Source of the DNA: Minisyncoccota bacterium | Lineage (GTDB): Bacteria; Patescibacteriota; Minisyncoccia; Phycocordibacterales; Phycocordibacteraceae | Assembly: GCA_035547315.1 (NCBI GenBank) | Contig: DASZVH010000001.1 | Coordinates: 1 to 58,458, forward strand | Length of the DNA stretch: 58,458 nt | Reading direction: 5' to 3' | Part shown: positions 33,214 to 46,098 of the stretch, piece after piece | How positions within the stretch are numbered: the first letter of the stretch is position 1 | How the letters are laid out: the number at the start of each line of letters is the position of its first letter | Made by a program: the position numbers and the translations under genes | Notes under the pieces: model-generated | The model's database searches: none | Told to the model about the DNA's origin: nothing | Seen by the model: only the letters and a program-made list of their open reading frames with translations

Positions 33214-34128
33214 CTAGCTATGCGAGTGGTACTTCTTATGCACCTCGCGCAGGTGGGAGTCGGTGATATGCGTGTAGATCTGCGTGGTGTTGATGGAGGC
33301 GTGGCCGAGGAGCTGCTGGACGCTCCGTAAATCGGCGCCGTTCCCGAGGAGGTCGGTCGCGAAAGCGTGGCGCAGGATGTGCGGCGTGACCTTCTTTGTG
33401 ATGCCGGCCATCGCGGCGTATGTTTTCAAATGCCGCTGGACGTCGCGCGGCGTGATGCGGTGCAGTTTGGTCTCCCGCCCGTCGAGGAAGAGCGCCTCCT
33501 CCATATCCTTGCGCGCCTTGAGATACTCGCGCACCGCCTGCTTGGCGCTCTCGGAGAGGAAGACGACGCGCACTTTCTCGCCCTTGCCGCGCACCGAGAG
33601 GTCGTCGCGCGAGAGGTCGAGGTCGCTGTCGAGCGCGCAGAGCTCGGAGACGCGCAGCCCGGTGGAGAAGAGGAGCTCGAGTATGGCTTTATCGCGAAGA
33701 TACGCGCGCCGTTTGTGCTCGTCTTTCTCCTTCGCGAGCGCCTCGGCGGGCGCTTTCATTAGTCGGGAGAGTTCCGCGGTTGTAATCAGCGTGATCTCGC
33801 GCTCAGGGAGCTTGGCGAGCTCGATGCGCTCCGGAGAGAGCGCCTCGACGCCGCGCTTGCGCAGATATTTGAGGAATGCGCGCAGCGCGATCATGTAGTA
33901 GTTCTGGGTGCGGCGCTTCATCGGGCCGTTCTGCGCTCCCGGCTGCCGGTTGAGCCAGAGGCGGAACTCGCGCACGTTCTGCTCGGTGATCTCGCTCGTA
34001 TCCTTGACGCCCATCTGGGCGAAGTAGCGGGTGAGATAGCGCTCATAGTTCTCGGTCGTCTTGACCGCGCGGCCGCGCTCGATCTCGAGATGCTCCAGAA
34101 ACTCTCGCTTGGCGCGCATCGACTCCAT
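33214..34128 (-). CDS. XerC/XerD-like tyrosine recombinase
   Basis: STGLRVSEL (R), GKGEKVR (K), TPHILRH (HxxR), LLGHA (H), TTQIYTH (Y). Confidence 0.95.
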   Translation of the reverse strand: MESMRAKREFLEHLEIERGRAVKTTENYERYLTRYFAQMGVKDTSEITEQNVREFRLWLNRQPGAQNGPMKRRTQNYYMIALRAFLKYLRKRGVEALSPERIELAKLPEREITLITTAELSRLMKAPAEALAKEKDEHKRRAYLRDKAILELLFSTGLRVSELCALDSDLDLSRDDLSVRGKGEKVRVVFLSESAKQAVREYLKARKDMEEALFLDGRETKLHRITPRDVQRHLKTYAAMAGITKKVTPHILRHAFATDLLGNGADLRSVQQLLGHASINTTQIYTHITDSHLREVHKKYHSHS

Positions 34129-34162: not shown

Positions 34163-34597
34163 CTAGGCCGCGGGCTTGCGGAGCTTGCCGGCAAGCACGA
34201 TGCCGAGCGCGGCGAGCGCGTAGAGGACGGCGAGCGCGCGGGCGGCTGCGGCGCTCTCGATCGCGCCGCCGAGCGGGAGCCCGACAGGGAAGATGCCGAA
34301 GATGATGAAAAGCATCAGCGGCACATACCAGAGCGAGAATTTCACGAAACGACTGAACGCGCGCTCATCGGCGAGGAGGAGGATGAGAGCGGTGGGAAGA
34401 AGCCACTCGCCGAGGATCATTAATGTAAGGCCCAGATTTAAATTTGGTGAGTTGCAAAACTTCCCCCACTGATCGTAACTAAATTCGCATGAATTTATAG
34501 TAAGGTTCTGGAACCAGGGGCCTCGAAAATACTGCCCGACTAAATAAATTAAACCGGCGATACCAAATGCCGATGCTTTCTTAAGCGCGAGCTTCAT
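34163..34597 (-). CDS. Small multi-pass membrane protein, candidate immunity protein
   Basis: From MKLALKK (144 aa), about four TM segments, ATG overlaps the lipase TGA (ATGA); 5' half AT-rich. Confidence 0.7.
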   Translation of the reverse strand: MKLALKKASAFGIAGLIYLVGQYFRGPWFQNLTINSCEFSYDQWGKFCNSPNLNLGLTLMILGEWLLPTALILLLADERAFSRFVKFSLWYVPLMLFIIFGIFPVGLPLGGAIESAAAARALAVLYALAALGIVLAGKLRKPAA

Positions 34598-37500
34598 AAC
34601 TTCAAGTATTGTATCAGCCCGAGCATCGAAGCCGCTTGATCCTCGCTTAGTTTCACCCCCGCTTGAGCGCCGATGAGCGTTTCGAGCCAGGAGACATCGG
34701 CTTGCGCGCTCGCGAGCTCGCCCGCCTCGCCCGCGAGCTTCTCGATCTGCGCGAGGAGGCGATTCTTCACCCCCGGCCGCGCCGAGAGCGCCGCGACCTC
34801 CTGCCGCAGGAGCGAGAGCGCGTCGGCCGGCGCGAGCGCTGCGGGGGTGTCGCTCGCCACCTCGAGGTCGATGACGCCGTCGCCGTCGATATCCACTTGC
34901 GGCTCGCTCGCCGCGCCGCCCTCGATTGAGAAGGCCATCGTCGTCGAGGCCGTGGTCGGGATCGCAGCGAAGCTCTCCTCGCTCTGCACCGCGCCCTCCG
35001 CGTCTACCTCCTCGACCTCGAGCGTGGTGGGGCCCTGCGCATAGCCGGCCGCCGCGACGGAGTATGAGCCCTCTTGCGGGAGCGTCAGATACTCCTCGCC
35101 GCTCTCGAGGTCGACGGCGCTCTCGGGGATATGCGCGACCGTGAGCGCGAGGCCGGTCCCGGCGGCCGGCACGACGCCGGTCTCGTTGCCCGAGGCGTCG
35201 GTCGCGATGATATTGACGGGAGAGTGAGAGCTGATGATGACAAGAGGATCTTTTTTGGTCGAGGGCTTTAATGAGGTCAGATAAAAATTCGAGATGGGTT
35301 GTCCCTTTATCAAATCGCTGAGTGTTTCTTGAATAGGCTGGGCAGAGGTAAGATCCTGATGAGAGAAATTTTGATGGAAGTCCGTTCCGTATTTTTTCAA
35401 ATTGAAATACCACGCATCGGCGATGTCGCCGAGCGCGGAGGGCGAGACAACGGTGCCATCGCCGTCCTCCGTCTTCTTTTCGGTGTGCTGGAGGATCGGC
35501 TTGAGCTCGCAATGGGCCGGATTAAGCGGGTCCGAGCGGCCGCAGGAGAGGATGTTGAAGGCGGCTTTGGTGTAGTCGAGCGTCGCGGGAGTGAGCGAGC
35601 CCCACCCGGCGATGGCGCTCACCGCGATCCCTGCGGGCGGCTGCCAGGAGTCGAGCGCTTGGTGGCCCTCTTCCGCTTTCTGGATCGCGGAGACCGGCAG
35701 CGGCAGCGGCGCCTTCAGCGTCGAATTGTCGAACTGCTCGTCGATGCCTTTTCCGTCGTCGATGAAAGACTCGAATGCGCCGAAGGCGCTGATCGCGCTG
35801 CCGTATGCGTCGACGAACGGCTTGAGCAGCGCGTTGTCGGAAAACTCGACGACCGGCGTCGCCACGTGCGTGAAGTAGGCGGGCGAGGGCAGGAGCGCGT
35901 AGGCGTCGGGAATGACCTCGGCCTCGGCGCGCACCGCCTTGGCCGAGACCAGGTCGAGCCCGAAGCCGAGCCCGATCGACTGGCCGTCGCCATGGAGGAG
36001 CGAGCCGACCGCGGCGGGCGTGCCGAACTGCGGCGTGCCGACCAGGATGATGCGGTCGATATAATCGGCGGCGCTCGGGCCAAGCTCCTGCGTCAGCGCT
36101 TTGGCGAGGAGGCCGCCGTTGCTGTGCGCGATGATAGTGACTTTGCCGGTGGGGGAGGAGCTCGCCATCTGCGCGACGACGTCGGCGAGATAGACGCGCG
36201 CGATCGAGCCGTCGGGCTCCTCGGTGAGCGTGCCGTTCTTGACCACGTCGAGCGGGTCATAGCGCCAGTCGTAGGGATACGCGCGCCACTCCTTGATCGT
36301 GCTCGAGGCGACGAGCCCGTCGAGGAATTGCTCGAGCCCGCCGTAGACCTCGAGGTCGCCCGGCGCGATCGCTTTGACGAGGCGCGCGATGATGCCCGGG
36401 TCCTGGCTCCAGATCGAGTCGATTATGTCTTTGGTGTAGAGATTGTTCGCGCTCGAGCCGTCCAGGTTGATGGCGAGATACTTGAGGTCCGCGTCGCTCG
36501 CGGGCTCCCAGACCCGCTTCTCCGTGTTACTCGAGAGCTTCATATATAAGCGGCTCGCCTCGGTGCCGGGGATAAAGAGGACGCTCGAGTGCCCTGGCGG
36601 GGGCGCGAGGAACGGGTCGGCGGAGAGCCAGGGAGCATAGGAGACCGCGCCGCTTACGCTCGCTCCCGCGCCTTCCGGATTCCCTGCGGGCTCGGCGGGG
36701 CCGCTCGGGTCGCCCCAGTAGTCGTCTTCAGCCGAGGTGGTGGCGCTGCCGTCGTTCTCGATGCCGAAAGCGCCGGCCGCGCCGATATCGCTCTCGTGGA
36801 TCGTGAGCTCGCCCGAGGCCACGCGCGCGCCGGCGGGCAGATGCACGCGCTCGAGGTCGCTCGCGCCCTCCTCCTCGAGCACGTCCCGGCCGATCGAGCC
36901 CGAGAAGGAGGTGTCGCTGATCGAGAGCGTCCCGCCGGCGTTGAAGAGGGCGCTCGAGCAGGGGCTCGCGTCGACCGAGTCGTCCGCGCAGAGGCTCCGA
37001 TCCCACTCCTCGCCGCCGTGATCGAGAGCCGCGTGCGCGAGCGAGAGCGTGCCTCCGCTCTCGATCGCGATGCCGGGCCAGCCGGCGGCCTGCGCCTGCG
37101 CGCTCGGCGCAAGCGTCACCGGCGCCTCCGCGTTCCCCTGAGCGGAGAACGCGCCGGAGATATCGAGCCCGCCGTGCGGGCCGAAGGCGAGCGTCGCCCC
37201 CGGCGCGGCCGAAACGCTCGTGCCCTCGTCTACCGCGATGTACTCCTCGATCTCGTTAGCATAGGGCGGCGGCGGAAAGACCTGGGTATCGGCGAGATCG
37301 CTCGCGTCCCACTCGAGCGCAAGCGGCGCGGACTCCGGCCCTGCGAGCAGGAGCCCGCCCTCCACCGAGCTCGCCTCCGCAATAGTATCCTCGGCGAGCC
37401 TGAGCGTGCCGCCCGCCAGGTCGACGCCGCGGCCGCCCTTCTGCGAGGCGCCGATGGTCGTGCCCTCGATCGTGGTCGAGGCGGTATCTTCGCCGAACCA

Positions 37501-38046
37501 GCCGGAGAGGACGCCGCCTGCCAGGCCGTGCTCGAGGATTGACTCGCTGATGAAGAGCTCGCCGCGGCTCTGGATCATCGGCGGGAAGAAGAGCGTGTCG
37601 CCGCCCGAGCCCTCCGGCAGCGCGACGCCGTCGTAGCGCAGCCGCGCGTGCGCAAGCGAGAGGCGCGCCCCCGGCTCGACCACGATCGTGTTCACGTTGA
37701 AGACGCTCGGCGCCGAGGTCGCGGCGAGCGCGGCGGTATCGCCGCCGTAGCTCGCGTCGGCGATATCGGCGAAGACGACCTCCTCGGAACTCGAGGCGCT
37801 TCCCGCGACGAGCGCTCCCGAGATGTCGAAGGCGCCCTGCGGGTCGAGCTTGACCACGACGCCCGGCTCGATCGTGAGCGTCGCGCCCGCGGCGATCGAG
37901 AGGTCGGTATAGACGAGATACGGGCTCCGGTCGGGGGTCCAGGTGGCGTCGCTCGCGATGGATTCGGGCGCGACGGTGGCGGCGCGCGCGGAGAAAGGCG
38001 CGAGACAAAGGAGAAGCCCTGCGAGCATGAGCGTGCGAGCGCGCAT
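34594..38046 (-). CDS. Large secreted protein: beta-helix N-terminus plus LCAT/PLA2-like alpha/beta hydrolase
   Basis: Signal peptide from MRARTL; oxyanion FIPGTEASRL, PYDWR, nucleophile AHSNGG, GTPQFGTP, GDGTV (Asp), HQDL (His); DIDGDGVID near the C-terminus. Confidence 0.85.
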   Translation of the reverse strand: MRARTLMLAGLLLCLAPFSARAATVAPESIASDATWTPDRSPYLVYTDLSIAAGATLTIEPGVVVKLDPQGAFDISGALVAGSASSSEEVVFADIADASYGGDTAALAATSAPSVFNVNTIVVEPGARLSLAHARLRYDGVALPEGSGGDTLFFPPMIQSRGELFISESILEHGLAGGVLSGWFGEDTASTTIEGTTIGASQKGGRGVDLAGGTLRLAEDTIAEASSVEGGLLLAGPESAPLALEWDASDLADTQVFPPPPYANEIEEYIAVDEGTSVSAAPGATLAFGPHGGLDISGAFSAQGNAEAPVTLAPSAQAQAAGWPGIAIESGGTLSLAHAALDHGGEEWDRSLCADDSVDASPCSSALFNAGGTLSISDTSFSGSIGRDVLEEEGASDLERVHLPAGARVASGELTIHESDIGAAGAFGIENDGSATTSAEDDYWGDPSGPAEPAGNPEGAGASVSGAVSYAPWLSADPFLAPPPGHSSVLFIPGTEASRLYMKLSSNTEKRVWEPASDADLKYLAINLDGSSANNLYTKDIIDSIWSQDPGIIARLVKAIAPGDLEVYGGLEQFLDGLVASSTIKEWRAYPYDWRYDPLDVVKNGTLTEEPDGSIARVYLADVVAQMASSSPTGKVTIIAHSNGGLLAKALTQELGPSAADYIDRIILVGTPQFGTPAAVGSLLHGDGQSIGLGFGLDLVSAKAVRAEAEVIPDAYALLPSPAYFTHVATPVVEFSDNALLKPFVDAYGSAISAFGAFESFIDDGKGIDEQFDNSTLKAPLPLPVSAIQKAEEGHQALDSWQPPAGIAVSAIAGWGSLTPATLDYTKAAFNILSCGRSDPLNPAHCELKPILQHTEKKTEDGDGTVVSPSALGDIADAWYFNLKKYGTDFHQNFSHQDLTSAQPIQETLSDLIKGQPISNFYLTSLKPSTKKDPLVIISSHSPVNIIATDASGNETGVVPAAGTGLALTVAHIPESAVDLESGEEYLTLPQEGSYSVAAAGYAQGPTTLEVEEVDAEGAVQSEESFAAIPTTASTTMAFSIEGGAASEPQVDIDGDGVIDLEVASDTPAALAPADALSLLRQEVAALSARPGVKNRLLAQIEKLAGEAGELASAQADVSWLETLIGAQAGVKLSEDQAASMLGLIQYLKL

Positions 38047-38146
38047 GAACTCATACAGGATACGACGAATACGCCCGGCGCGTGTAGAGAAGGTTATCCC
38101 CAGTTCTTGGGCAGCGGCGGCGCGCATGAGGTATACTGGCTGCACC

Positions 38147-41100
38147 ATGCCGTCGTTCTCAAAGCGGTTCGTTTTCGCGGCAGCCGTGCTCCTTCTTCCG
38201 CTCTCCTTCGCCCTCCCCGCGCACGCCGCCGAGCTCTCCGAGGACCAAATCAACTCGCTCCTCGCGCTCCTGACCTCCTTCGGCGTCGACCAAGCCACGC
38301 TCACTACCGTCGACGACATCCTCCACGGCATCACGCCGCCCGCCGCCAACTGCCCTGACCTCGAGCGTACCTTGGGCGAGGGGATGAGCGGCGCCGACGT
38401 TACCGCGCTTCAGCAGTTCCTCGCGGCGGACCCGACCGTCTATCCCGAGGGCCTCGTTACCGGCTATTTCGGCTCTTTGACGCAGGCCGCGGTACAGCGT
38501 TTCCAAGCCAAGCAAGGCATCATCAACTACGGTACTCCCGCCACCACAGGCTACGGCCTCGTGGGGCCTAAGACGCGCGCGACTATCGCCTCGGTCTGCC
38601 AGTTGAGCACCGTTGGTACGGGCGGCTACACAGGCGGTGGCGAGGGCGGAGGGGGTGGCGGCGGTGGTGGTGGCGGTGGTGGCGGAGGAGGAGGGGGCGG
38701 CGGGGGAGGAGGAGGGGGCGGCGGAGGGGGCGGAGGCGGCGACACTAACCCGCCCACGACGCCCGGCAATCTCCAGGGTACGCCGACCACCACGACCGTC
38801 GCGCTCTCCTGGAACGCCTCGAGCGACGACACGGGCGTCGCCGGCTATGACGTCTACGAAAACGGCAGCATGATCGCCTCGGGCTCGGACACGAGCTATG
38901 TCGCGGCAGGTCTTACCTGCGCTACGAGCTACACCTTCGCGGTCGACGCCTACGATGCCGCCGGCAACCGCTCGGGCCAGGCGAATATCCAGGTAACCAC
39001 CCAGGACTGCGGCGGAGGGGGCGACACCAACCCGCCCACGACGCCCGGCAGCTTCGGCGCGAGCGGCGTTACCGCCTCGCAGGTCCAGCTCTCCTGGGGC
39101 GCCTCGAGCGACGACACGGGTGTTGCGGGCTACGACATATATAAGAACGGAGTTTCCTCCTGGTCGACCGCCTCGACCAGCTATTCCTTCACCGGCCTTA
39201 CCTGCGCGACCTCCTACACCTTCGGCGTCGACGCCTACGACGCCGCGGGCAACCACTCGGGCCAGGCGACCACCGCGACCACGACGCTCCCCTGCGTCGA
39301 CACGCAGCCGCCCTCCACCCCTGCGCCCGCCGTGGCCAGCTCATCGTCCGACTCGATAACGGCGCAGTGGAGCGCCTCGAGCGACGATACCGGCGTCGCG
39401 GGCTATGACGTCTACGAGAACGGCACCAAACTCGGCAGCACGACGAACCTCTCTTACGCCTTTACCGGCCTCTCCTGCGGTACGAGCTACACGCTCGGCG
39501 TCGACGCCTACGACGGCGCGGGCAATCACTCCGCGATCGGCACGGTGCAGGGCTCGACGCTCTCGTGCGGCGGCGGGGGCGGCAGTGGCGCGCAGATCGC
39601 CATCCCGACCTATCCGGAGAAGTCAGTGGTCATCGCGACGACGAACGTCCTCAACTACGGCGCCGACCCGACCGGGAAGACCGACTCGACCAACGCCTTC
39701 CAGCAGGCGCTCGATGCCGCGTTCGCCAAGGGCGGCGGCACGGTCTGGGCGCCGGCGGGCACGTACCGCTTCAACGGCCAGATCACGGTCCCCTCGAGCG
39801 TTACGCTGCGCGGCGACTGGAAACAGCCCACCGACTCCGACAAATCGGTTGGCGGTACCATCCTTGCGATTTACAACACGAGCAGCAGCTTCGTCCTCCT
39901 CGACGGTGCCGGTGGGCTCGAGGATTTGAATTTTTGGTATCCTTCGCAATCTATCACGAGCATTAATACGGCAGTTCCAGTGACGGTAGCGCTCGATCCG
40001 GACGCGCCGCACTCCTTGCGCAATCCTTCGGTTCTGGACAGCACATTCGTCAATCCGACCATGATTTTCGACGCGCGCGGAGCCTCTGGTAAGGGGATTG
40101 AACTTGACAATATATACGGTTCGCCGCTCGTGACCGGTGTCATCCTGGCCGACACGACAAGCGCTTGCCGTGTAAGCGACCTCCACCTCGGCGCCGTCTA
40201 TTGGGCCTCCTCGGGCCTCTCCGGCGCACCCTCGTATTCCGCGCTCGCGGACTACACCCGCACGCACACGATCGGCGCGGAGTATGACGATAATTGGCTC
40301 TCCTCGAACGTCTCACTCGATGACTTCGAGATAGGGCTCTATTATGCCGGCAAGTACAAGGGACCTAACAATCCGGTCGTGACCGGCGAGACCATCACGG
40401 GGCTCGAGATCAGTGGCGCCAATATCGGCATCAAGATCAGCCAGTACAACTTTTTCATGAGCGTTGCGTCGATAAGCGCTACCGCGGGCACGAATCCAAC
40501 CGCGATACTGATCACAAAGAATGATGCGAAGGGTAACCCTACCACGGGCCGGTTGGTGTTTGACGACACCACGCTCTCCTCGAGCGGCGCGGACATCACG
40601 AACCAATCGTCATCCTTCGATATCGACGCGGCCAATGACACCTTTGCCTCATGGGGCGGGTATGCGATCACCGTTGCCGGCGGCCTTGCGCTCGAGGGCG
40701 ATCACTTCTCTCAAGCGGCTTCGGGCAACACCAAGGATCTGTCGCTTGGAAGCTCAGTGCCGCGGGCCTTTATCGTCGGCAATACCTATCCGAGTGGGCA
40801 AAGCGCGATCGCCATGGATAGCGCGGCGAATCCGAGCAATGTTTGGGTTGCCGAGGGCCTCACTGATACAGTGCTTGCTGCACTCGGTATAAGCGGGTTT
40901 CCGAGCTCAGGCTACACGGTTGATGCGCTTGCCCACCTCGCGCCGCCGCAGCCCAAGCCCGCCCGCACTGGTACCGACTCCCTTTATGATGTCACCGCCT
41001 ACGGCGCGAAGGCAGACTGTATCGACAGCGATTTCAACGATTCGGGCATTATGACCGGCGGTTGCACCGACAACACAGCAGCATTCCAAGCGGCGCTCAA

Positions 41101-43624
41101 TGCGGCCGGTAATGCAGGCGGCGGCACCGTGTATGTGCCCGGCAGTCCGGCGACCGGCATGGGGTACTTTTTCACCGGCAACCTCCGTGTGCCCACGGGA
41201 GTTGAGCTTACCGGTGCGCCACAGGATTCCGCATTCCACACGCTTGATACGCAGACCGCGCTTTTCGTGCAAGGGAATTCTTCACCCTTCATCGCGCTTT
41301 CCTCGAATGCGGGCGTGCGTGGCCTCGCGTTCTGGTATACCAACCAAGACGCCTATCATCAGGCGCCGTACAATGGGCCGCAGCCTTTCGGCTACACCAT
41401 TCAGGCGCAAGGCGCCGGGGATTGGGTCGAGAATGTCGTTAACGCAAATGCGACCTATGGACTCGATTTCGGCACTTACGGCTCGACCGGCCACTTTATC
41501 GACAACTACCAAGCAGCGGTGCTCCGCGACGGTATCTTCGTGAGCAAGAGCACGAGCGGTTTTATTGGGAATCTGCAGACAGTCTTTACTTTCTGGCTCG
41601 ACCTTGGGAAAGGCTCCGGCGACAACCAGAAAATTCTCTCGTACCCCGAGCCTTTCGGGAATCCTCCCTCAGACTTGGATCAAAACGGAAACAGAGATAC
41701 TGACACCGGCGAACCCGCGGATGCGTATGCTTCGGGGAGTGGGCTTCTTTTGGGGAGTGCCAAGAACGAAGTCATCCAGAGCGTGTATCTCCACGGCCCC
41801 CATTACGGTATCCAGACAGTAAACGACAACGGCGGGCCCAGCTTCACGCTTCTTAATTTCGGCTCTGAGACGTATACCGGCCTTGATGTCGAGGCGCTCG
41901 ATCCGGCCGGCGCCAAGATACTCGCGGCCCAGTACCACACGATCGCGGACAGCTGCTATCCCGCCAGCTGCGGCGACGCGGTGGGCAAGCCTTATCTCAT
42001 CGTCGGCAGCGGCGTCGCGCCGACCACGCCGATCACCTTCTTCTCCTACGCCAATCATTCGATGACGCCGATCGGCTTCGATCTCTCCGGAGGAAAAACC
42101 ATCATCGAGCAATACTCAAGCGACCTGCAGGCTAACACAATCGCGAGCATTCAGACGGCAGCGGCAATCCACGGGGCTCTGACCGGCTTCGCGCTTCTCG
42201 ACGGGAAATTCCTCAATTCGCTCACCGCGCCGGCTCGGCAAGGCGGTCCGAGCAATCCGAACGCGACGGTCGTTTCCGACGACCTGAGTCCCAATGTTGC
42301 GCTCGTGGGCATCTGGGCGGTCGATAATCCGGCTCAAGTGAGCGGTCCGGTTGATCTCACCTACCAGCCTTGGTTCACGGGCGGAGGCAGCGGCCCCGAT
42401 ACGACGCCGCCTTCCGCGCCGACCAATCTTGCCGGCACCGGCGCGGGGGGCGTGGCGGCGCTCACCTGGACTGCCTCCACCGACGACGTTGGTGTCGCGG
42501 GCTACAAGGTGATCCGCGACGGCGCGCAGATCGCGACCACCACGCTCGCGCTCTACACGGATCTTGGGGTAACGGTCGGTCAGACTTACACTTATAAAGT
42601 CAAGGCCTTCGACGCGGCGGGCAATGTCTCAGGCGCTTCCAATGCGGCGCAGGTGACGATCCTCGGCCACAGCGGTCTTGGCACCCCTTCAGGCGGAGGC
42701 AGCTCGCAGCTTCAGGAGGGTGCCGGCACCTGCAACGCACCGGCAGCAAACCTCGCGTTTGGCGCCACCGGCGCGGCGGTGACCACCCTCCAGCAAGCGC
42801 TCATCGCGCTCGGCTACTCGCTCCCGGCCGGCGCCACCGGCTACTACGGCAGCCAGACCGTCGCGGCGGTCGAGGCCTTCCAAGCCGCGCACGGGATCGT
42901 CTCCTCGGGGAGCGCCGCGACGACCGGCTTCGGCGCCGCGGGCCCCACCACGCGCGCGGCGCTCGAGAGCGTCTGCGGCAGCGCGCCCTCCTCTCCTGTG
43001 AGCGGCACCGGCGCGGCCGGCGGCACCTCGGGCGCGGCCGGCGGCACCGGCGGCTCGGCCCCGGCGAGCGGCGCGGGGAGCGCCGGCGGCGGCAGCTGCC
43101 CGCTGCTGCCTACGACGCTCGCCGAGGGCTCCTCGGGCACCGCGGTCACCGCGCTGCAGCAGCTCCTGCTCGCGCTCGGCTACTCGCTCCCGGCCGGCGC
43201 CACCGGCTACTACGGCAGCCAGACCGTCGCGGCGGTCGAGGCCTTCCAGATTTCCCATACGATCGTCTACTCGGGCACGCCGGCCTCCACCGGCTTCGGC
43301 GCCGCGGGGCCGCGTACCGTCGCTGCGCTCGCTGCCGCATGTGGCTCCTCCTCGAACAGCCCAACCAACCCCTCTTCGGAGACTTCGGGCGGTCTCGGCA
43401 CGTCGACGCAATCGGGCACCGGCGCCGTCGGCGGAGTGAGCTCGGGCACGGGCACGGGCGGCACCGGCGCGGCCGGCGGCACCTCGGGCGCGGCCGGCAG
43501 CACCAGCTCCGGCACCGGCACCTCGGGCGCAGCCGACAGCACCAGCACCAGCTCCGGCACCGGCACGGCGACCTCGACGAGCAAGGGTTCTGCGGTCGGC
43601 GGCCTCAGCCCCTCCTCGCGCTAG
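38147..43624 (+). CDS. Giant secreted protein (1825 aa): 3 peptidoglycan-binding domains, 4 FN3, two Pectate_lyase_3-like beta-helix glycosidase modules
   Basis: PG-binding DVTALQQFL...TGYFGSLT.AAV..FQ (x3); FN3 DT.PP..P...W.AS.DD.GVAGY (x4); NVLNYGADPTGKTDSTNAFQ and YDVTAYGAK...DNTAAFQ with GGGTV..P.G.Y; poly-Gly linker. Confidence 0.85.
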   Translation: MPSFSKRFVFAAAVLLLPLSFALPAHAAELSEDQINSLLALLTSFGVDQATLTTVDDILHGITPPAANCPDLERTLGEGMSGADVTALQQFLAADPTVYPEGLVTGYFGSLTQAAVQRFQAKQGIINYGTPATTGYGLVGPKTRATIASVCQLSTVGTGGYTGGGEGGGGGGGGGGGGGGGGGGGGGGGGGGGGGGGGDTNPPTTPGNLQGTPTTTTVALSWNASSDDTGVAGYDVYENGSMIASGSDTSYVAAGLTCATSYTFAVDAYDAAGNRSGQANIQVTTQDCGGGGDTNPPTTPGSFGASGVTASQVQLSWGASSDDTGVAGYDIYKNGVSSWSTASTSYSFTGLTCATSYTFGVDAYDAAGNHSGQATTATTTLPCVDTQPPSTPAPAVASSSSDSITAQWSASSDDTGVAGYDVYENGTKLGSTTNLSYAFTGLSCGTSYTLGVDAYDGAGNHSAIGTVQGSTLSCGGGGGSGAQIAIPTYPEKSVVIATTNVLNYGADPTGKTDSTNAFQQALDAAFAKGGGTVWAPAGTYRFNGQITVPSSVTLRGDWKQPTDSDKSVGGTILAIYNTSSSFVLLDGAGGLEDLNFWYPSQSITSINTAVPVTVALDPDAPHSLRNPSVLDSTFVNPTMIFDARGASGKGIELDNIYGSPLVTGVILADTTSACRVSDLHLGAVYWASSGLSGAPSYSALADYTRTHTIGAEYDDNWLSSNVSLDDFEIGLYYAGKYKGPNNPVVTGETITGLEISGANIGIKISQYNFFMSVASISATAGTNPTAILITKNDAKGNPTTGRLVFDDTTLSSSGADITNQSSSFDIDAANDTFASWGGYAITVAGGLALEGDHFSQAASGNTKDLSLGSSVPRAFIVGNTYPSGQSAIAMDSAANPSNVWVAEGLTDTVLAALGISGFPSSGYTVDALAHLAPPQPKPARTGTDSLYDVTAYGAKADCIDSDFNDSGIMTGGCTDNTAAFQAALNAAGNAGGGTVYVPGSPATGMGYFFTGNLRVPTGVELTGAPQDSAFHTLDTQTALFVQGNSSPFIALSSNAGVRGLAFWYTNQDAYHQAPYNGPQPFGYTIQAQGAGDWVENVVNANATYGLDFGTYGSTGHFIDNYQAAVLRDGIFVSKSTSGFIGNLQTVFTFWLDLGKGSGDNQKILSYPEPFGNPPSDLDQNGNRDTDTGEPADAYASGSGLLLGSAKNEVIQSVYLHGPHYGIQTVNDNGGPSFTLLNFGSETYTGLDVEALDPAGAKILAAQYHTIADSCYPASCGDAVGKPYLIVGSGVAPTTPITFFSYANHSMTPIGFDLSGGKTIIEQYSSDLQANTIASIQTAAAIHGALTGFALLDGKFLNSLTAPARQGGPSNPNATVVSDDLSPNVALVGIWAVDNPAQVSGPVDLTYQPWFTGGGSGPDTTPPSAPTNLAGTGAGGVAALTWTASTDDVGVAGYKVIRDGAQIATTTLALYTDLGVTVGQTYTYKVKAFDAAGNVSGASNAAQVTILGHSGLGTPSGGGSSQLQEGAGTCNAPAANLAFGATGAAVTTLQQALIALGYSLPAGATGYYGSQTVAAVEAFQAAHGIVSSGSAATTGFGAAGPTTRAALESVCGSAPSSPVSGTGAAGGTSGAAGGTGGSAPASGAGSAGGGSCPLLPTTLAEGSSGTAVTALQQLLLALGYSLPAGATGYYGSQTVAAVEAFQISHTIVYSGTPASTGFGAAGPRTVAALAAACGSSSNSPTNPSSETSGGLGTSTQSGTGAVGGVSSGTGTGGTGAAGGTSGAAGSTSSGTGTSGAADSTSTSSGTGTATSTSKGSAVGGLSPSSR
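42804..43248 (+). repeat. 79-bp exact direct repeat (42804-42882 and 43170-43248)
   Basis: TCGCGCTCGGCTACTCG...GAGGCCTTCCA occurs twice, within the duplicated PG-binding domains. Confidence 0.9.
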
Positions 43625-43752: not shown

Positions 43753-44952
<1,200 letters not shown>

Positions 44953-45549: not shown

Positions 45550-46098
45550 ATGGGGAAAATACTTGCGATCTTTACCGCATCCTCCGCCGGTGCGCCGATG
45601 GAGTCGGTGCGCTACGCGGCGCTTATCGCGGGGGCGGGCATCGCGGGCGACCGCTATGCGCTCGGCACCGGGAAGTATTCGCACTCGACCCCGCCGAAGA
45701 TACGCCACGTGACCTTCATCGCTCGCGAGGCGATCGAGCGAGCGAACCGGGAACTGCCCGCGGGCACACATTTCGCCCCGATCGACACGCGCCGCAACGT
45801 GCTCGTGGAGGGAATCGAGCTCAACGGCCTTGTTGGGCGCTTCTTCGGCAACAAGAAGGTGCTCTTCGAGGGCGTCGAACTCGCCGAGCCGTGCCTGCGG
45901 CCGCCCGCGCTGCTCAATCGGCGTTGGGCTGAGGTACGGAATGCCGCCATAGGAAGGGCCTTCGTTACGGCCTTTCGGCATCGGGGCGGCCTGCGCGCGG
46001 CGATCTATATGGACGCGCGTATCGCCGTCGACGATCCGCTCTGGGCCTTCAGCGAAGCGGAGGCGCGCCAGCGCTTCCCGGGCTTGGCGAGATCGTGA
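45550..46098 (+). CDS. MOSC domain-containing protein
   Basis: GIAGDRY, RRNVLVEGI.LN.LVG, EPC. Confidence 0.8.
   Translation: MGKILAIFTASSAGAPMESVRYAALIAGAGIAGDRYALGTGKYSHSTPPKIRHVTFIAREAIERANRELPAGTHFAPIDTRRNVLVEGIELNGLVGRFFGNKKVLFEGVELAEPCLRPPALLNRRWAEVRNAAIGRAFVTAFRHRGGLRAAIYMDARIAVDDPLWAFSEAEARQRFPGLARS

What the first reader, a model, noticed from the sequence alone, without database searches (positions are those of the whole stretch)
38147..43624. Giant cell-wall-binding glycosidase-like protein, a possible host-docking and digestion device
Seen: signal peptide, PG-binding domain, poly-Gly, 3 FN3, two tandem Pectate_lyase_3-like beta-helix modules, 1 FN3, 2 PG-binding domains, and a Gly/Ser/Thr tail. 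It is divergent from the lipase, with only ~100 nt between starts. Known: tandem beta-helices with this N-terminal motif occur in GH55/GH87-type glucanases and phage tailspikes. Inference: PG-binding domains at both ends could tether or bridge cells while the core degrades host capsule or EPS. With the lipase, this would form a divergent host-attack locus.
Basis: partly seen in the sequence, partly recalled or inferred. Interest (0 to 1): 0.68.

Follow-up and report, generated by a model that had tools for sequence, protein, structure and literature searches.

The report
Wall-anchored tandem beta-helix glycanase-like protein
A very small soil bacterium encodes a 1825-residue secreted protein in which the organism's usual cell-wall-binding and spacer modules carry a rare, probably imported, sugar-cutting-type core distantly related to fungal beta-1,3-glucanases; it looks like a surface-displayed polysaccharide enzyme, and its pairing with the neighbouring lipase is not a conserved unit.

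Summary
Gene 38147-43624 (+) encodes 1825 aa: signal peptide, PG_binding_1, a 36-residue poly-Gly run, 3 FN3, two tandem PF12708 beta-helix domains, 1 FN3, 2 PG_binding_1 and a Gly/Ser/Thr tail. It starts 100 nt from a divergent LCAT-like lipase gene.

The core (aa 484-1410) is homologous to GH55 in a collinear profile alignment. GH55 is also the best structural match. However, TM-scores are only 0.28-0.38 and the GH55 catalytic motifs are not literally present. The core belongs to a large uncharacterised tandem-beta-helix family. Its Paenibacillus members are wall-anchored proteins (SLH or CBM9) placed behind sugar ABC transporters.

The gene looks chimeric. The leader, PG-binding and poly-Gly modules recur in other proteins of this 641-kb genome and in a congener. 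The core is absent from 60 relatives and 400 genomes of the phylum, and it has lower GC3 than the rest of the gene. Its nearest relatives (40-56%) lie in other small-genome-like contigs and one Polyangiaceae MAG.

The lipase family occurs in 37 of 61 relatives without the core, so a "divergent host-attack locus" is not supported.

Most likely this is a surface-anchored glycan depolymerase of unknown substrate. Host bridging remains untested.

The parts
38147..43624 (+). Whole gene, 1825 aa plus stop
   Evidence: the start is supported by the signal peptide and by the collinear N-terminal match to a congener's protein
38108..38137 (+). Promoter-like site TGGGCA-N18-TATACT, ending 9 nt before the ATG (weak consensus match)
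38147..38227 (+). Signal peptide (aa 1-27, AHA|AE)
   Evidence: read from the sequence; no signal-peptide predictor was available
38228..38326 (+). Leader helix motif LSEDQINSLLALLTSFGV... (aa 28-60), shared with three other PG_binding_1 proteins of this genome
38351..38599 (+). PG_binding_1 copy 1 (aa ~69-151)
   Evidence: (1lbu match 69-130)
38633..38740 (+). Poly-Gly linker (aa 163-198, one Glu inside)
38741..39568 (+). Three tandem FN3 domains (aa ~199-474), each with two Cys
39596..40921 (+). Core N-terminal right-handed beta-helix (aa 484-925) with a PF12708 cap motif; conserved D557, Y598, Q601, T633, N636, W686, S689, D715
40964..42376 (+). Core C-terminal right-handed beta-helix (aa 940-1410) with a second PF12708 cap; conserved E1020, D1027, N1101, D1107, H1116, W1150, E1208; position 1241 is acidic in 48/48 sequences
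42392..42661 (+). Fourth FN3 (aa 1416-1505)
   Evidence: 1k85 ChiA1 FN3, E 2e-13
42731..42976 (+). PG_binding_1 copy 2 (aa ~1529-1610)
43097..43342 (+). PG_binding_1 copy 3 (aa ~1651-1732)
43343..43621 (+). Gly/Ser/Thr-rich low-complexity tail (aa 1733-1825); no visible sortase motif or TM segment
   Evidence: read from the sequence
34594..38046 (-). Divergent neighbour: secreted 1150-aa LCAT/PGAP1-like alpha/beta hydrolase ('lipase'); a neighbour only, not shown to be part of one system

Best explanation
The gene encodes a cell-surface polysaccharide-degrading enzyme of an ultra-small soil bacterium. The genome is 641 kb and 98.8% complete.

Proposed mechanism:
- A Sec signal peptide exports the protein.
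- Three PG_binding_1 domains, one N-terminal and two C-terminal, hold it non-covalently on peptidoglycan. This is most simply the cell's own wall.
- The poly-Gly run, four FN3 domains and the Gly/Ser/Thr tail act as flexible spacers.
- The 927-residue core is two tandem right-handed beta-helices. It is distantly homologous to GH55 exo/endo-beta-1,3-glucanases, which cut glycan at a site formed between the two helices.
- Here the best candidates for that chemistry are E1241 (acidic in all 48 family members compared) and E1208 in the C-domain, with Q601, T633/N636 and S659 in the N-domain.

The gene is a mosaic. The leader, anchor and spacer modules are native to the lineage. The core was acquired laterally from a donor of about 59-60% GC.

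Shown: the architecture, the homology, the patchy distribution, the compositional break and the independent assemblies. Inferred: catalysis, the hydrolase mechanism, the substrate (unknown; a beta-glucan is only a guess) and which wall the anchors bind.
For: Architecture.

Core fold:
- The AlphaFold model built from 48 sequences has pLDDT 87 and pTM 0.92 and shows two beta-helices.
- The best PDB matches are GH55 entries 5m5z, 3eqn and 8jhh, aligned over both domains.
- hhalign of the family profile against GH55 gives probability 99.2% and E 1.4e-19, collinear over core residues 11-844 against residues 21-722 of the 733-residue 3eqn sequence used.
- Counted from each cap motif, W1150, E1208 and E1241 fall at spacings like those of the GH55 WxW, SEH-Glu and general-acid Glu once a 30-40-residue low-confidence loop is allowed for. 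Motif definitions come from PMC10637969, sequences, and columns.

The family looks like glycanases:
- 3239 cluster representatives match at E<1e-3.
- The named genomes that carry it are polysaccharide degraders such as Paenibacillus, Cohnella, Bacteroidota and rumen Clostridia.
- The P. glycanilyticus homologue has tandem PF12708 + CBM9 + 3 SLH domains. It follows a sugar ABC transporter and lies beside a GH3 gene. The P. paridis homologue follows an ABC permease gene of the same type.

Native display scaffold:
- The N-terminal 150 aa are 42% identical and collinear with a 401-aa PG_binding_1+PKD protein of a congener.
- Three more proteins in this genome start with the same leader plus PG_binding_1, and another has a poly-Gly run before its PG_binding_1.
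- The organism makes its own peptidoglycan: 4 Mur-ligase genes and 3 PBP genes.

Foreign core:
- It is present in 0 of 60 relatives and 0 of 400 genomes of the phylum, covering 320 genera.
- Core GC3 is 0.71-0.74, against 0.79-0.90 in the flanking modules and 0.87-0.96 in neighbouring genes.
- The contig of the nearest homologue has GC 0.59.
- In the tree, the query groups with small-genome-like contigs and one Polyangiaceae gene.
- Another protein, 53% identical in the core, also carries PG_binding_1 and the same FN3 type, but in a different order.
Against: - No activity data exist for any member of this subfamily.
- TM-scores to GH55 are low (0.28-0.38, rmsd about 14 A) even with a confident model. 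The packing of the two helices may therefore differ and the active site may not be at the interface.
- The literal GH55 motifs (Q[ST]ETxY, SEH, WxWxxDH) are absent. The hhalign confidence is high only at the two cap motifs and one C-domain segment, so the residue equivalences are tentative.
- I had no access to model coordinates and could not check whether the conserved acids cluster together.
- Some conserved residues (YPxQ, VNxY) recur in both halves and may be structural.
- Beta-helix proteins with the same cap include epimerases, lyases and pure adhesins such as AlgE, PL6 and PfbA.
- The compositional argument for transfer rests on one gene.
Confidence: 0.6

Rival explanations
1. Host-docking and digestion device acting together with the lipase. 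PG-binding domains at both ends bridge the small cell to a host's wall, the core strips host capsule or EPS, and the divergently transcribed lipase attacks host lipids as part of one locus.
For: - Both genes encode large secreted proteins and share a 100-nt divergent spacer.
- A genome of this size implies dependence on other cells.
- PG-binding modules lie at both ends of the protein.
- The giant's leader helix and the lipase's C-terminal helix share an LSEDQ...L..L motif.
- One Polyangiaceae gene is nested among the nearest core homologues, which could reflect physical association.
Against: - The lipase family is found in 37 of 61 relatives and the core in none.
- In one relative whose lipase neighbourhood I read, the lipase sits in another context.
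- The closest core homologues have no LCAT-like neighbour.
- The leader plus PG_binding_1 module is a generic head of secreted proteins in this genome.
- The cell has its own peptidoglycan to bind.
- No expression data were obtained.
Confidence: 0.15
2. A non-catalytic adhesin. The tandem beta-helix is a rigid binding platform for a glycan or protein ligand, as in the pneumococcal beta-helix adhesin PfbA, presented on FN3 stalks from a wall anchor.
For: - PfbA (4mr0, 3zpp) appears among both the sequence and the fold matches.
- The GH55 catalytic motifs are not literally conserved.
- The FN3 and poly-Gly stalks are typical of adhesins.
Against: - Position 1241 is acidic in 48 of 48 family members at only 24-56% identity. 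Further conserved polar residues are D557, E1020, D1107, H1116, N636 and W686.
- Paenibacillus homologues sit with sugar importers and a GH3 gene.
Confidence: 0.12
3. An enzyme with non-hydrolase chemistry: a polysaccharide lyase or C5-epimerase acting on an acidic polymer such as alginate or pectin-like EPS, as in AlgE or the two-domain PL6 lyases.
For: - AlgE4/AlgE6 and PL6 lyases rank directly after GH55 in the profile and fold searches.
- PF12708 is the rhamnogalacturonase/epimerase family.
Against: - Matches to AlgE cover only the 45-residue cap motif or a single domain.
- PL6 TM-scores are 0.15-0.2.
- The only collinear match over both domains is to GH55.
- No Ca-binding lyase motifs were looked for, so this remains open.
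Confidence: 0.1
4. A remnant of a phage tailspike or depolymerase, or a gene within a mobile island bounded by the nearby integrase.
For: - Tailspikes give generic single-domain fold matches.
- A tyrosine recombinase gene lies at 33214-34128.
- The core appears to be laterally acquired.
Against: - No phage genes flank the gene. The neighbours are the lipase, an XerC/D-type recombinase, exonuclease III, the CCA-adding enzyme and tuf-rpsJ.
- Viral structures match no better than GH55 and only over one domain.
- There is no particle-binding N-terminal domain.
- Only the core is compositionally odd, not the whole gene.
Confidence: 0.03

Closest known systems
GH55 beta-1,3-glucanases (PcLam55A 3eqn, CtLam55 5m5z, MnLam55A 8jhh, SacteLam55A)
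   Same: - Two tandem right-handed beta-helix domains, each opening with the YGAxGDGxTDDTxAxQxAxxxAxxxGGGxVxxPxGxY cap.
- Collinear profile homology (probability 99.2%).
- Best structural hit.
- Conserved Trp and two acidic residues in the C-domain at similar spacing from the cap.
   Different: - 11-13% identity, TM only 0.28-0.38 with rmsd 14 A.
- The core is about 180 residues longer, with a 30-40-residue disordered loop.
- The literal motifs Q[ST]ETxY, SEH and WxWxxDH are not present.
- It is embedded in PG_binding_1/FN3 modules, whereas the three solved GH55 chains compared here are ~750-residue proteins made up almost wholly of the two helices.
- Substrate is unknown.
Paenibacillus/Cohnella wall-anchored tandem PF12708 proteins (e.g. 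the 1981-aa P. glycanilyticus NBRC 16618 protein at L035:4915-10860)
   Same: - Same core family, 30-32% identity over both domains.
- Also a giant secreted protein, held on the producer's own wall by non-covalent anchor modules and placed for extracellular glycan breakdown.
   Different: - The anchor is SLH plus CBM9 instead of PG_binding_1 plus FN3.
- It is encoded in a sugar-utilisation cluster (ABC transporter, GH3), whereas the gene here sits between a lipase gene and tuf.
- It is uncharacterised biochemically as far as I could find.
Core-only homologues P0003/P0018, P0020, P0021 (small-genome-like contigs) and P0019 (Polyangiaceae MAG, HEY1955785.1)
   Same: 40-56% identity over the whole 927-residue core, forming one clade in the tree.
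   Different: - They are about 950-1030 aa, and the one read in full (P0003) has an N-terminal TM segment.
- Their only recorded Pfam family is PF12708, with no PG_binding_1 or FN3.
- P0004 is the exception, with PG_binding_1 and FN3 in another order.
Phage tailspike depolymerases (Sf6, HK620, CBA120 TSPs)
   Same: Right-handed beta-helix with the same cap superfamily, and a glycan-cutting role.
   Different: - The match covers a single helix only.
- There is no trimerisation or particle-binding module and no phage context.

Membership tests
GH55 | Two tandem right-handed beta-helix domains joined by a linker | tested here: met
   Two PF12708 caps at aa 499-610 and 964-1029. The AlphaFold model (pTM 0.92) shows two beta-helices.
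GH55 | Sequence-profile homology to GH55 across both domains | tested here: met
   hhalign of the 48-sequence family profile against 3eqn/5m5z/8jhh gives probability 99.2% and E 1.4e-19, collinear over 11-844 against 21-722. Confidence is high only at the caps and one C-domain segment.
GH55 | Same global structure (side-by-side 'rib-cage' packing with the active site at the interface) | tested here: inconclusive
   GH55 is the top Foldseek hit (E about 1e-9), but TM is 0.28-0.38 and rmsd about 14 A with both models.
GH55 | General acid Glu in Q[ST]ETxY, relay Glu-His in SEH, the WxWxxDH aromatic block, and N-domain Glu/Thr/Gln, Gln and Ser (PMC10637969) | tested here: inconclusive
   The literal motifs are absent. 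Candidates at similar spacing are W1150, E1208 (KNE; Glu in 29/48 sequences), E1241 (GSETY; acidic in 48/48), Q601 (47/48), T633/N636 and S659.
GH55 | Beta-1,3-glucan hydrolysis with inversion | not testable with these tools
   Needs an enzyme assay.
Pfam PF12708 (Pect-lyase_RHGA_epim) | Score above the gathering threshold | tested here: met
   70 bits against a cut-off of 27, in 2 stretches. In the genome search, 60.8 bits (above the cut-off) and 24.5 bits (below it).
Pfam PF01471 (PG_binding_1) | Score above the gathering threshold, in three copies | tested here: met
   110.9 bits against a cut-off of 23, in 3 stretches. All three copies are above the cut-off in the genome search. Binding to peptidoglycan itself was not tested.
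GH28 rhamnogalacturonidase / galacturonidase | NCBIfam equivalog score above the cut-off | tested here: not met
   38.7 bits against a cut-off of 500 and 33 bits against 800. The matches cover only the roughly 50-residue cap.
GH87 alpha-1,3-glucanase | Best structural or sequence match to the GH87 catalytic unit | tested here: not met
   7c7d matches one domain only (TMt 0.32-0.42) and ranks below GH55.
Phage tailspike | Phage genomic context and a particle-binding or trimerising module | tested here: not met
   The neighbours are housekeeping genes. BFVD matches are generic and cover a single domain.

The most novel reading that the evidence does not exclude
The core defines an uncharacterised glycoside-hydrolase family. 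It would be a sister of GH55 with a different packing of the two helices. Ultra-small, host-dependent soil bacteria have repeatedly captured it by lateral transfer and mounted it on their own wall-anchor scaffolds. In this protein, the PG-binding modules at the two ends would bind two different walls, the cell's own and a partner's. The enzyme would then be held in the contact zone, where it cuts the partner's surface polysaccharide.
Probability: 0.15. Interest if true: 0.7.

Novelty: new variant of a known kind. Interest (0 to 1): 0.42.

Why it matters
Ultra-small bacteria with genomes of about 0.6 Mb carry few enzymes, and how they obtain nutrients or interact with partners is largely unknown.

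Spending about 0.9% of such a genome on one surface protein marks this gene as important to the organism's lifestyle, particularly as its enzyme-like core is absent from hundreds of relatives.

The case shows module shuffling at work. A lineage-specific export and wall-anchor cassette serves as a platform for an imported catalytic core.

It also points to a populous family that has not been characterised biochemically: 3239 cluster representatives of tandem beta-helix proteins related to GH55. Determining the substrate of this family would benefit carbohydrate-enzyme classification well beyond this organism.

Tried and rejected
1. A plain phmmer search of the whole protein against PDB found only FN3, PG-binding and poly-Gly noise (antibody linkers), and nothing for the core apart from two marginal matches reaching into it (2uve, 5olp).

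2. A profile search against PDB matched only the 45-residue cap shared by AlgE, PfbA, GH55, GH87 and tailspikes. It is not diagnostic.

3. The first AlphaFold model, built from 12 sequences, had pLDDT 75. I repeated it with 48 sequences (pLDDT 87, pTM 0.92), expecting a better fit to GH55. The fit did not improve. The modest TM-score is therefore not due to a poor model.

4. The word-indexed homologue search found only 15 relatives, which suggested a tiny family. The exhaustive HMMER search corrected this to 3239.

5. I looked for a conserved lipase-plus-core pair in relatives and found none.

6. I considered a phage or island origin for the whole gene and rejected it on context and because only the core is compositionally odd.

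7. My first tblastn script on relatives' loci returned nothing, because those locus files were not present in the Python box. I used the ORF listing and Pfam instead.

8. NCBIfam hits to CbhB and SleB reflect only the FN3 and PG-binding modules.
Full report
**What is there**

The window has about 65% GC. It belongs to a genome of 641,353 bases in 13 contigs, estimated 98.8% complete. That size suggests a very reduced, probably partner-dependent bacterium.

The ORF 37943-43624 (+) is open. The ATG at 38147 yields a textbook signal peptide, MPSFSKRFVFAAAVLLLPLSFALPAHA|AE. From residue 1 the protein aligns with the N-terminus of a secreted protein of a congener. I therefore accept 38147 as the start, giving 1825 aa.

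Pfam finds PG_binding_1 three times (110.9 bits), fn3, and PF12708 twice. Together with the PDB sequence matches and the genome scan, the order of modules is:

1. Signal peptide.
2. A short helical leader, aa 28-60.
3. PG_binding_1, aa ~69-151.
4. A poly-Gly run, aa 163-198, encoded by mixed GGN codons.
5. Three FN3 domains, aa ~199-474.
6. A 927-residue core, aa 484-1410, with PF12708 caps at 499-610 and 964-1029.
7. A fourth FN3, aa 1416-1505.
8. Two PG_binding_1 domains, aa ~1529-1610 and ~1651-1732.
9. A Gly/Ser/Thr tail.

The divergent neighbour (34594-38046, minus strand, 1150 aa) has LCAT/PGAP1-type alpha/beta-hydrolase hits. Its start lies exactly 100 nt from the start of the giant gene.

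**It is not an assembly artefact**

Near-identical sequence is present in soil metagenomes from at least three further studies. Contigs from those other studies cross both the FN3-to-core junction (39396-41035) and the core-to-FN3/PG-binding junction (40825-42855), at roughly 98-99% identity. Assemblies break only in the repetitive poly-Gly/FN3 stretch.

**The core**

A word-indexed search found few relatives. An exhaustive HMMER search found 3239 cluster representatives at E<1e-3 and 366 at E<1e-30. The core therefore belongs to a large family.

Structure prediction and fold search gave these results:

- With 48 homologues aligned, AlphaFold gives a confident model with pLDDT 87 and pTM 0.92, made of two right-handed beta-helices.
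- Foldseek against the PDB ranks the GH55 beta-1,3-glucanases first (5m5z, 3eqn, 8jhh), aligned across both domains. AlgE epimerases, two-domain PL6 lyases, GH87 and tailspikes follow, each matching one domain or matching poorly.
- The GH55 TM-scores are only 0.28-0.38, with rmsd about 14 A. They did not rise with the better model.

For a residue-level comparison I recovered the GH55 sequences from the tool output and ran hhalign. The family profile against GH55 gives probability 99.2%, collinear over both domains. High-confidence columns are limited to the two cap motifs and the C-domain segment GFIGNLQTVFTFW, which aligns with YLEGMWVWLADHD.

According to PMC10637969, GH55 catalysis uses:

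- a general-acid Glu in Q[ST]ETxY;
- a Glu-His pair in SEH;
- a WxWxxDH block;
- three N-domain residues.

None of these motifs is literally present here. Across 48 family members at 24-56% identity, however, the following are conserved:

- position 1241 (GSETY here) is Asp or Glu in all 48;
- D557 is acidic in 48/48;
- E1020 in 46/48;
- D1107 in 43/48;
- H1116 in 38/48;
- W1150 in 40/48;
- N636 and W686 in 48/48;
- Q601 in 47/48.

Counted from the caps, W1150, E1208 and E1241 lie at offsets comparable to the GH55 Trp, relay Glu and general acid, once a 30-40-residue low-confidence loop is allowed for. This equivalence is my inference from spacing, not a superposition. I conclude that the core is homologous to GH55 and probably catalytic, but that it is not demonstrably a GH55 member.

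**Independent support for a glycan-degrading family**

Among species-representative genomes, the family occurs in Paenibacillus, Cohnella, Armatimonadota, Bacteroidota and gut or rumen Clostridia. In P. glycanilyticus the homologue is a 1981-aa protein with tandem PF12708, CBM9 and three SLH domains. It is encoded directly after a sugar ABC transporter and next to a GH3 gene. The P. paridis homologue likewise follows an ABC permease gene of the same type. This is the classic layout of a wall-anchored depolymerase feeding an oligosaccharide importer. It is also a close architectural analogue of the protein here, with SLH in place of PG_binding_1.

**A mosaic gene**

The N-terminal 150 residues (signal peptide, the leader helix LSxxQIxSLLxLLxSFGV, and PG_binding_1) are 42% identical and collinear with the head of a 401-aa PG_binding_1+PKD protein in a congener. 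In that genome the gene sits directly upstream of tuf.

Within this genome:

- Three more proteins open with the same leader plus PG_binding_1.
- Three others carry a C-terminal PG_binding_1, one of them behind a poly-Gly run.

The anchor and spacer modules are thus the lineage's standard display kit. The organism also makes its own peptidoglycan, with four Mur-ligase genes and three PBP genes.

The core shows the opposite pattern:

- It is absent from 36 species of the genus and 24 other families of the order.
- It is absent from 400 genomes sampled across the phylum, covering 320 genera.
- Its GC3 is 0.71-0.74, against 0.79-0.90 for the other modules of the same gene and 0.87-0.96 for neighbouring genes.
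- Its GC of 0.60 equals that of the contig carrying the closest homologue.
- The nearest relatives (40-56% identity) are proteins of about 950-1030 aa whose only recorded Pfam family is PF12708. The one I read in full (P0003) has an N-terminal TM segment. Three lie on contigs with dense housekeeping content typical of small genomes. One lies in a Polyangiaceae MAG with a genuinely myxobacterial context. In a quick tree these form one clade.
- Another metagenomic protein, 53% identical in the core, also carries PG_binding_1 and the same FN3 subtype, but in a different order. Fusion to such anchors has therefore happened or been reshuffled more than once.

**The lipase pairing**

The LCAT-like protein family is found in 37 of 61 relatives, none of which has the core. 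In one congener the lipase homologue lies beside T4SS-like genes and ComEC. None of the close core homologues has an LCAT-like neighbour. The divergent arrangement here is therefore a juxtaposition specific to this genome, not an inherited two-gene module. Co-regulation through the shared 100-nt spacer remains possible but untested. The only promoter-like match for the giant gene is weak.

**Mechanism and rivals**

I favour, at about 0.6, a surface-displayed glycan depolymerase anchored by PG_binding_1 modules, with the substrate unknown. The main rivals are:

- a non-catalytic adhesin (0.12);
- lyase or epimerase chemistry (0.10);
- a phage remnant (0.03).

Which wall the anchors bind cannot be decided by sequence. 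The presence of anchors at both ends is compatible with bridging, but it is also compatible with a two-point attachment to the cell's own wall.

**Novelty**

The modules and the general logic, a wall-anchored multi-domain glycanase, are known. What is new here:

- an uncharacterised GH55-related family;
- its rare, patchy presence in ultra-small genomes;
- the clear case of a native display cassette capturing a foreign core.

I rate it a new variant of a known kind, of moderate interest.

Noticed in passing
window 38228-38290 (+) and 34594-34650 (-); genome C4:79795, C8:6443, C8:40029; L014:6219-6290 (-), L015:10460-10530: A short amphipathic helix motif, L[ST]xxQ(x)2-3 hh x L h, heads the mature N-terminus of four PG_binding_1 proteins of this genome. 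A variant ends the LCAT-like lipase (KLSEDQAASMLGLIQYLKL*) and its homologues in two congeners (ITQAQALFMLQLVGLLSP*, ITQAQMLLSMLSYLKTLL*). The giant and the lipase share the exact LSEDQ form. It might be a sorting or docking signal.
   Followed up: partly
L006/L007/L028 (Polyangiaceae MAG DASXHD010000034.1), gene at L006:10001-12862: A myxobacterial gene (51% identical over the core) sits in a genuine myxobacterial context of sigma-54 activators, Ser/Thr kinase, MMPL and sulfatase. It nests inside a clade otherwise found on small-genome-like contigs. This hints at gene exchange between these groups. The direction is unknown.
   Followed up: partly
window 43753-44952 (tuf); genome C12:45329-48022; L021, L022: In two congeners tuf follows rpsL-(rpsG)-fusA. 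One of them has a 401-aa PG_binding_1+PKD gene inserted between fusA and tuf. In this genome tuf is preceded by the giant gene, and the likely fusA lies near the end of another contig (C12). The spot upstream of tuf seems to accept surface-protein genes.
   Followed up: partly
genome C10:6661-9690: Another large secreted protein of the same genome has a 16-residue poly-Gly run just before a C-terminal PG_binding_1 domain. Poly-Gly linkers next to wall anchors therefore recur in this organism.
   Followed up: no
window 39566: Strains in two soil samples of another study carry an in-frame 3-nt insertion (GCG) near the Gly-rich linker between the third FN3 and the core. They also carry about 1% substitutions across the core.
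   Followed up: no
window 38108-38137: The only promoter-like match for the giant gene (TGGGCA-N18-TATACT) ends 9 nt before the ATG. If real, the mRNA would be nearly leaderless.
   Followed up: no
L004:6134-7138: Two genes upstream of the closest core homologue (P0003) lies a 334-aa Abhydrolase_3/BD-FAE esterase gene. It is a different family from the LCAT-like lipase here, so this is probably coincidence.
   Followed up: no
window 45550-46098 (+): A 182-aa ORF with a weak MOSC-domain match (E 1.5e-4, just below the cut-off) sits between rpsJ and rplC, interrupting the S10 ribosomal-protein cluster.
   Followed up: no
genome C4:100796-105442 (-): A 1549-aa secreted protein has repeated Ig-like modules, what looks by eye like a LamG/concanavalin-type segment (not scanned against a domain library), and a C-terminal PG_binding_1. 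It is another large wall-anchored protein in this tiny genome.
   Followed up: no
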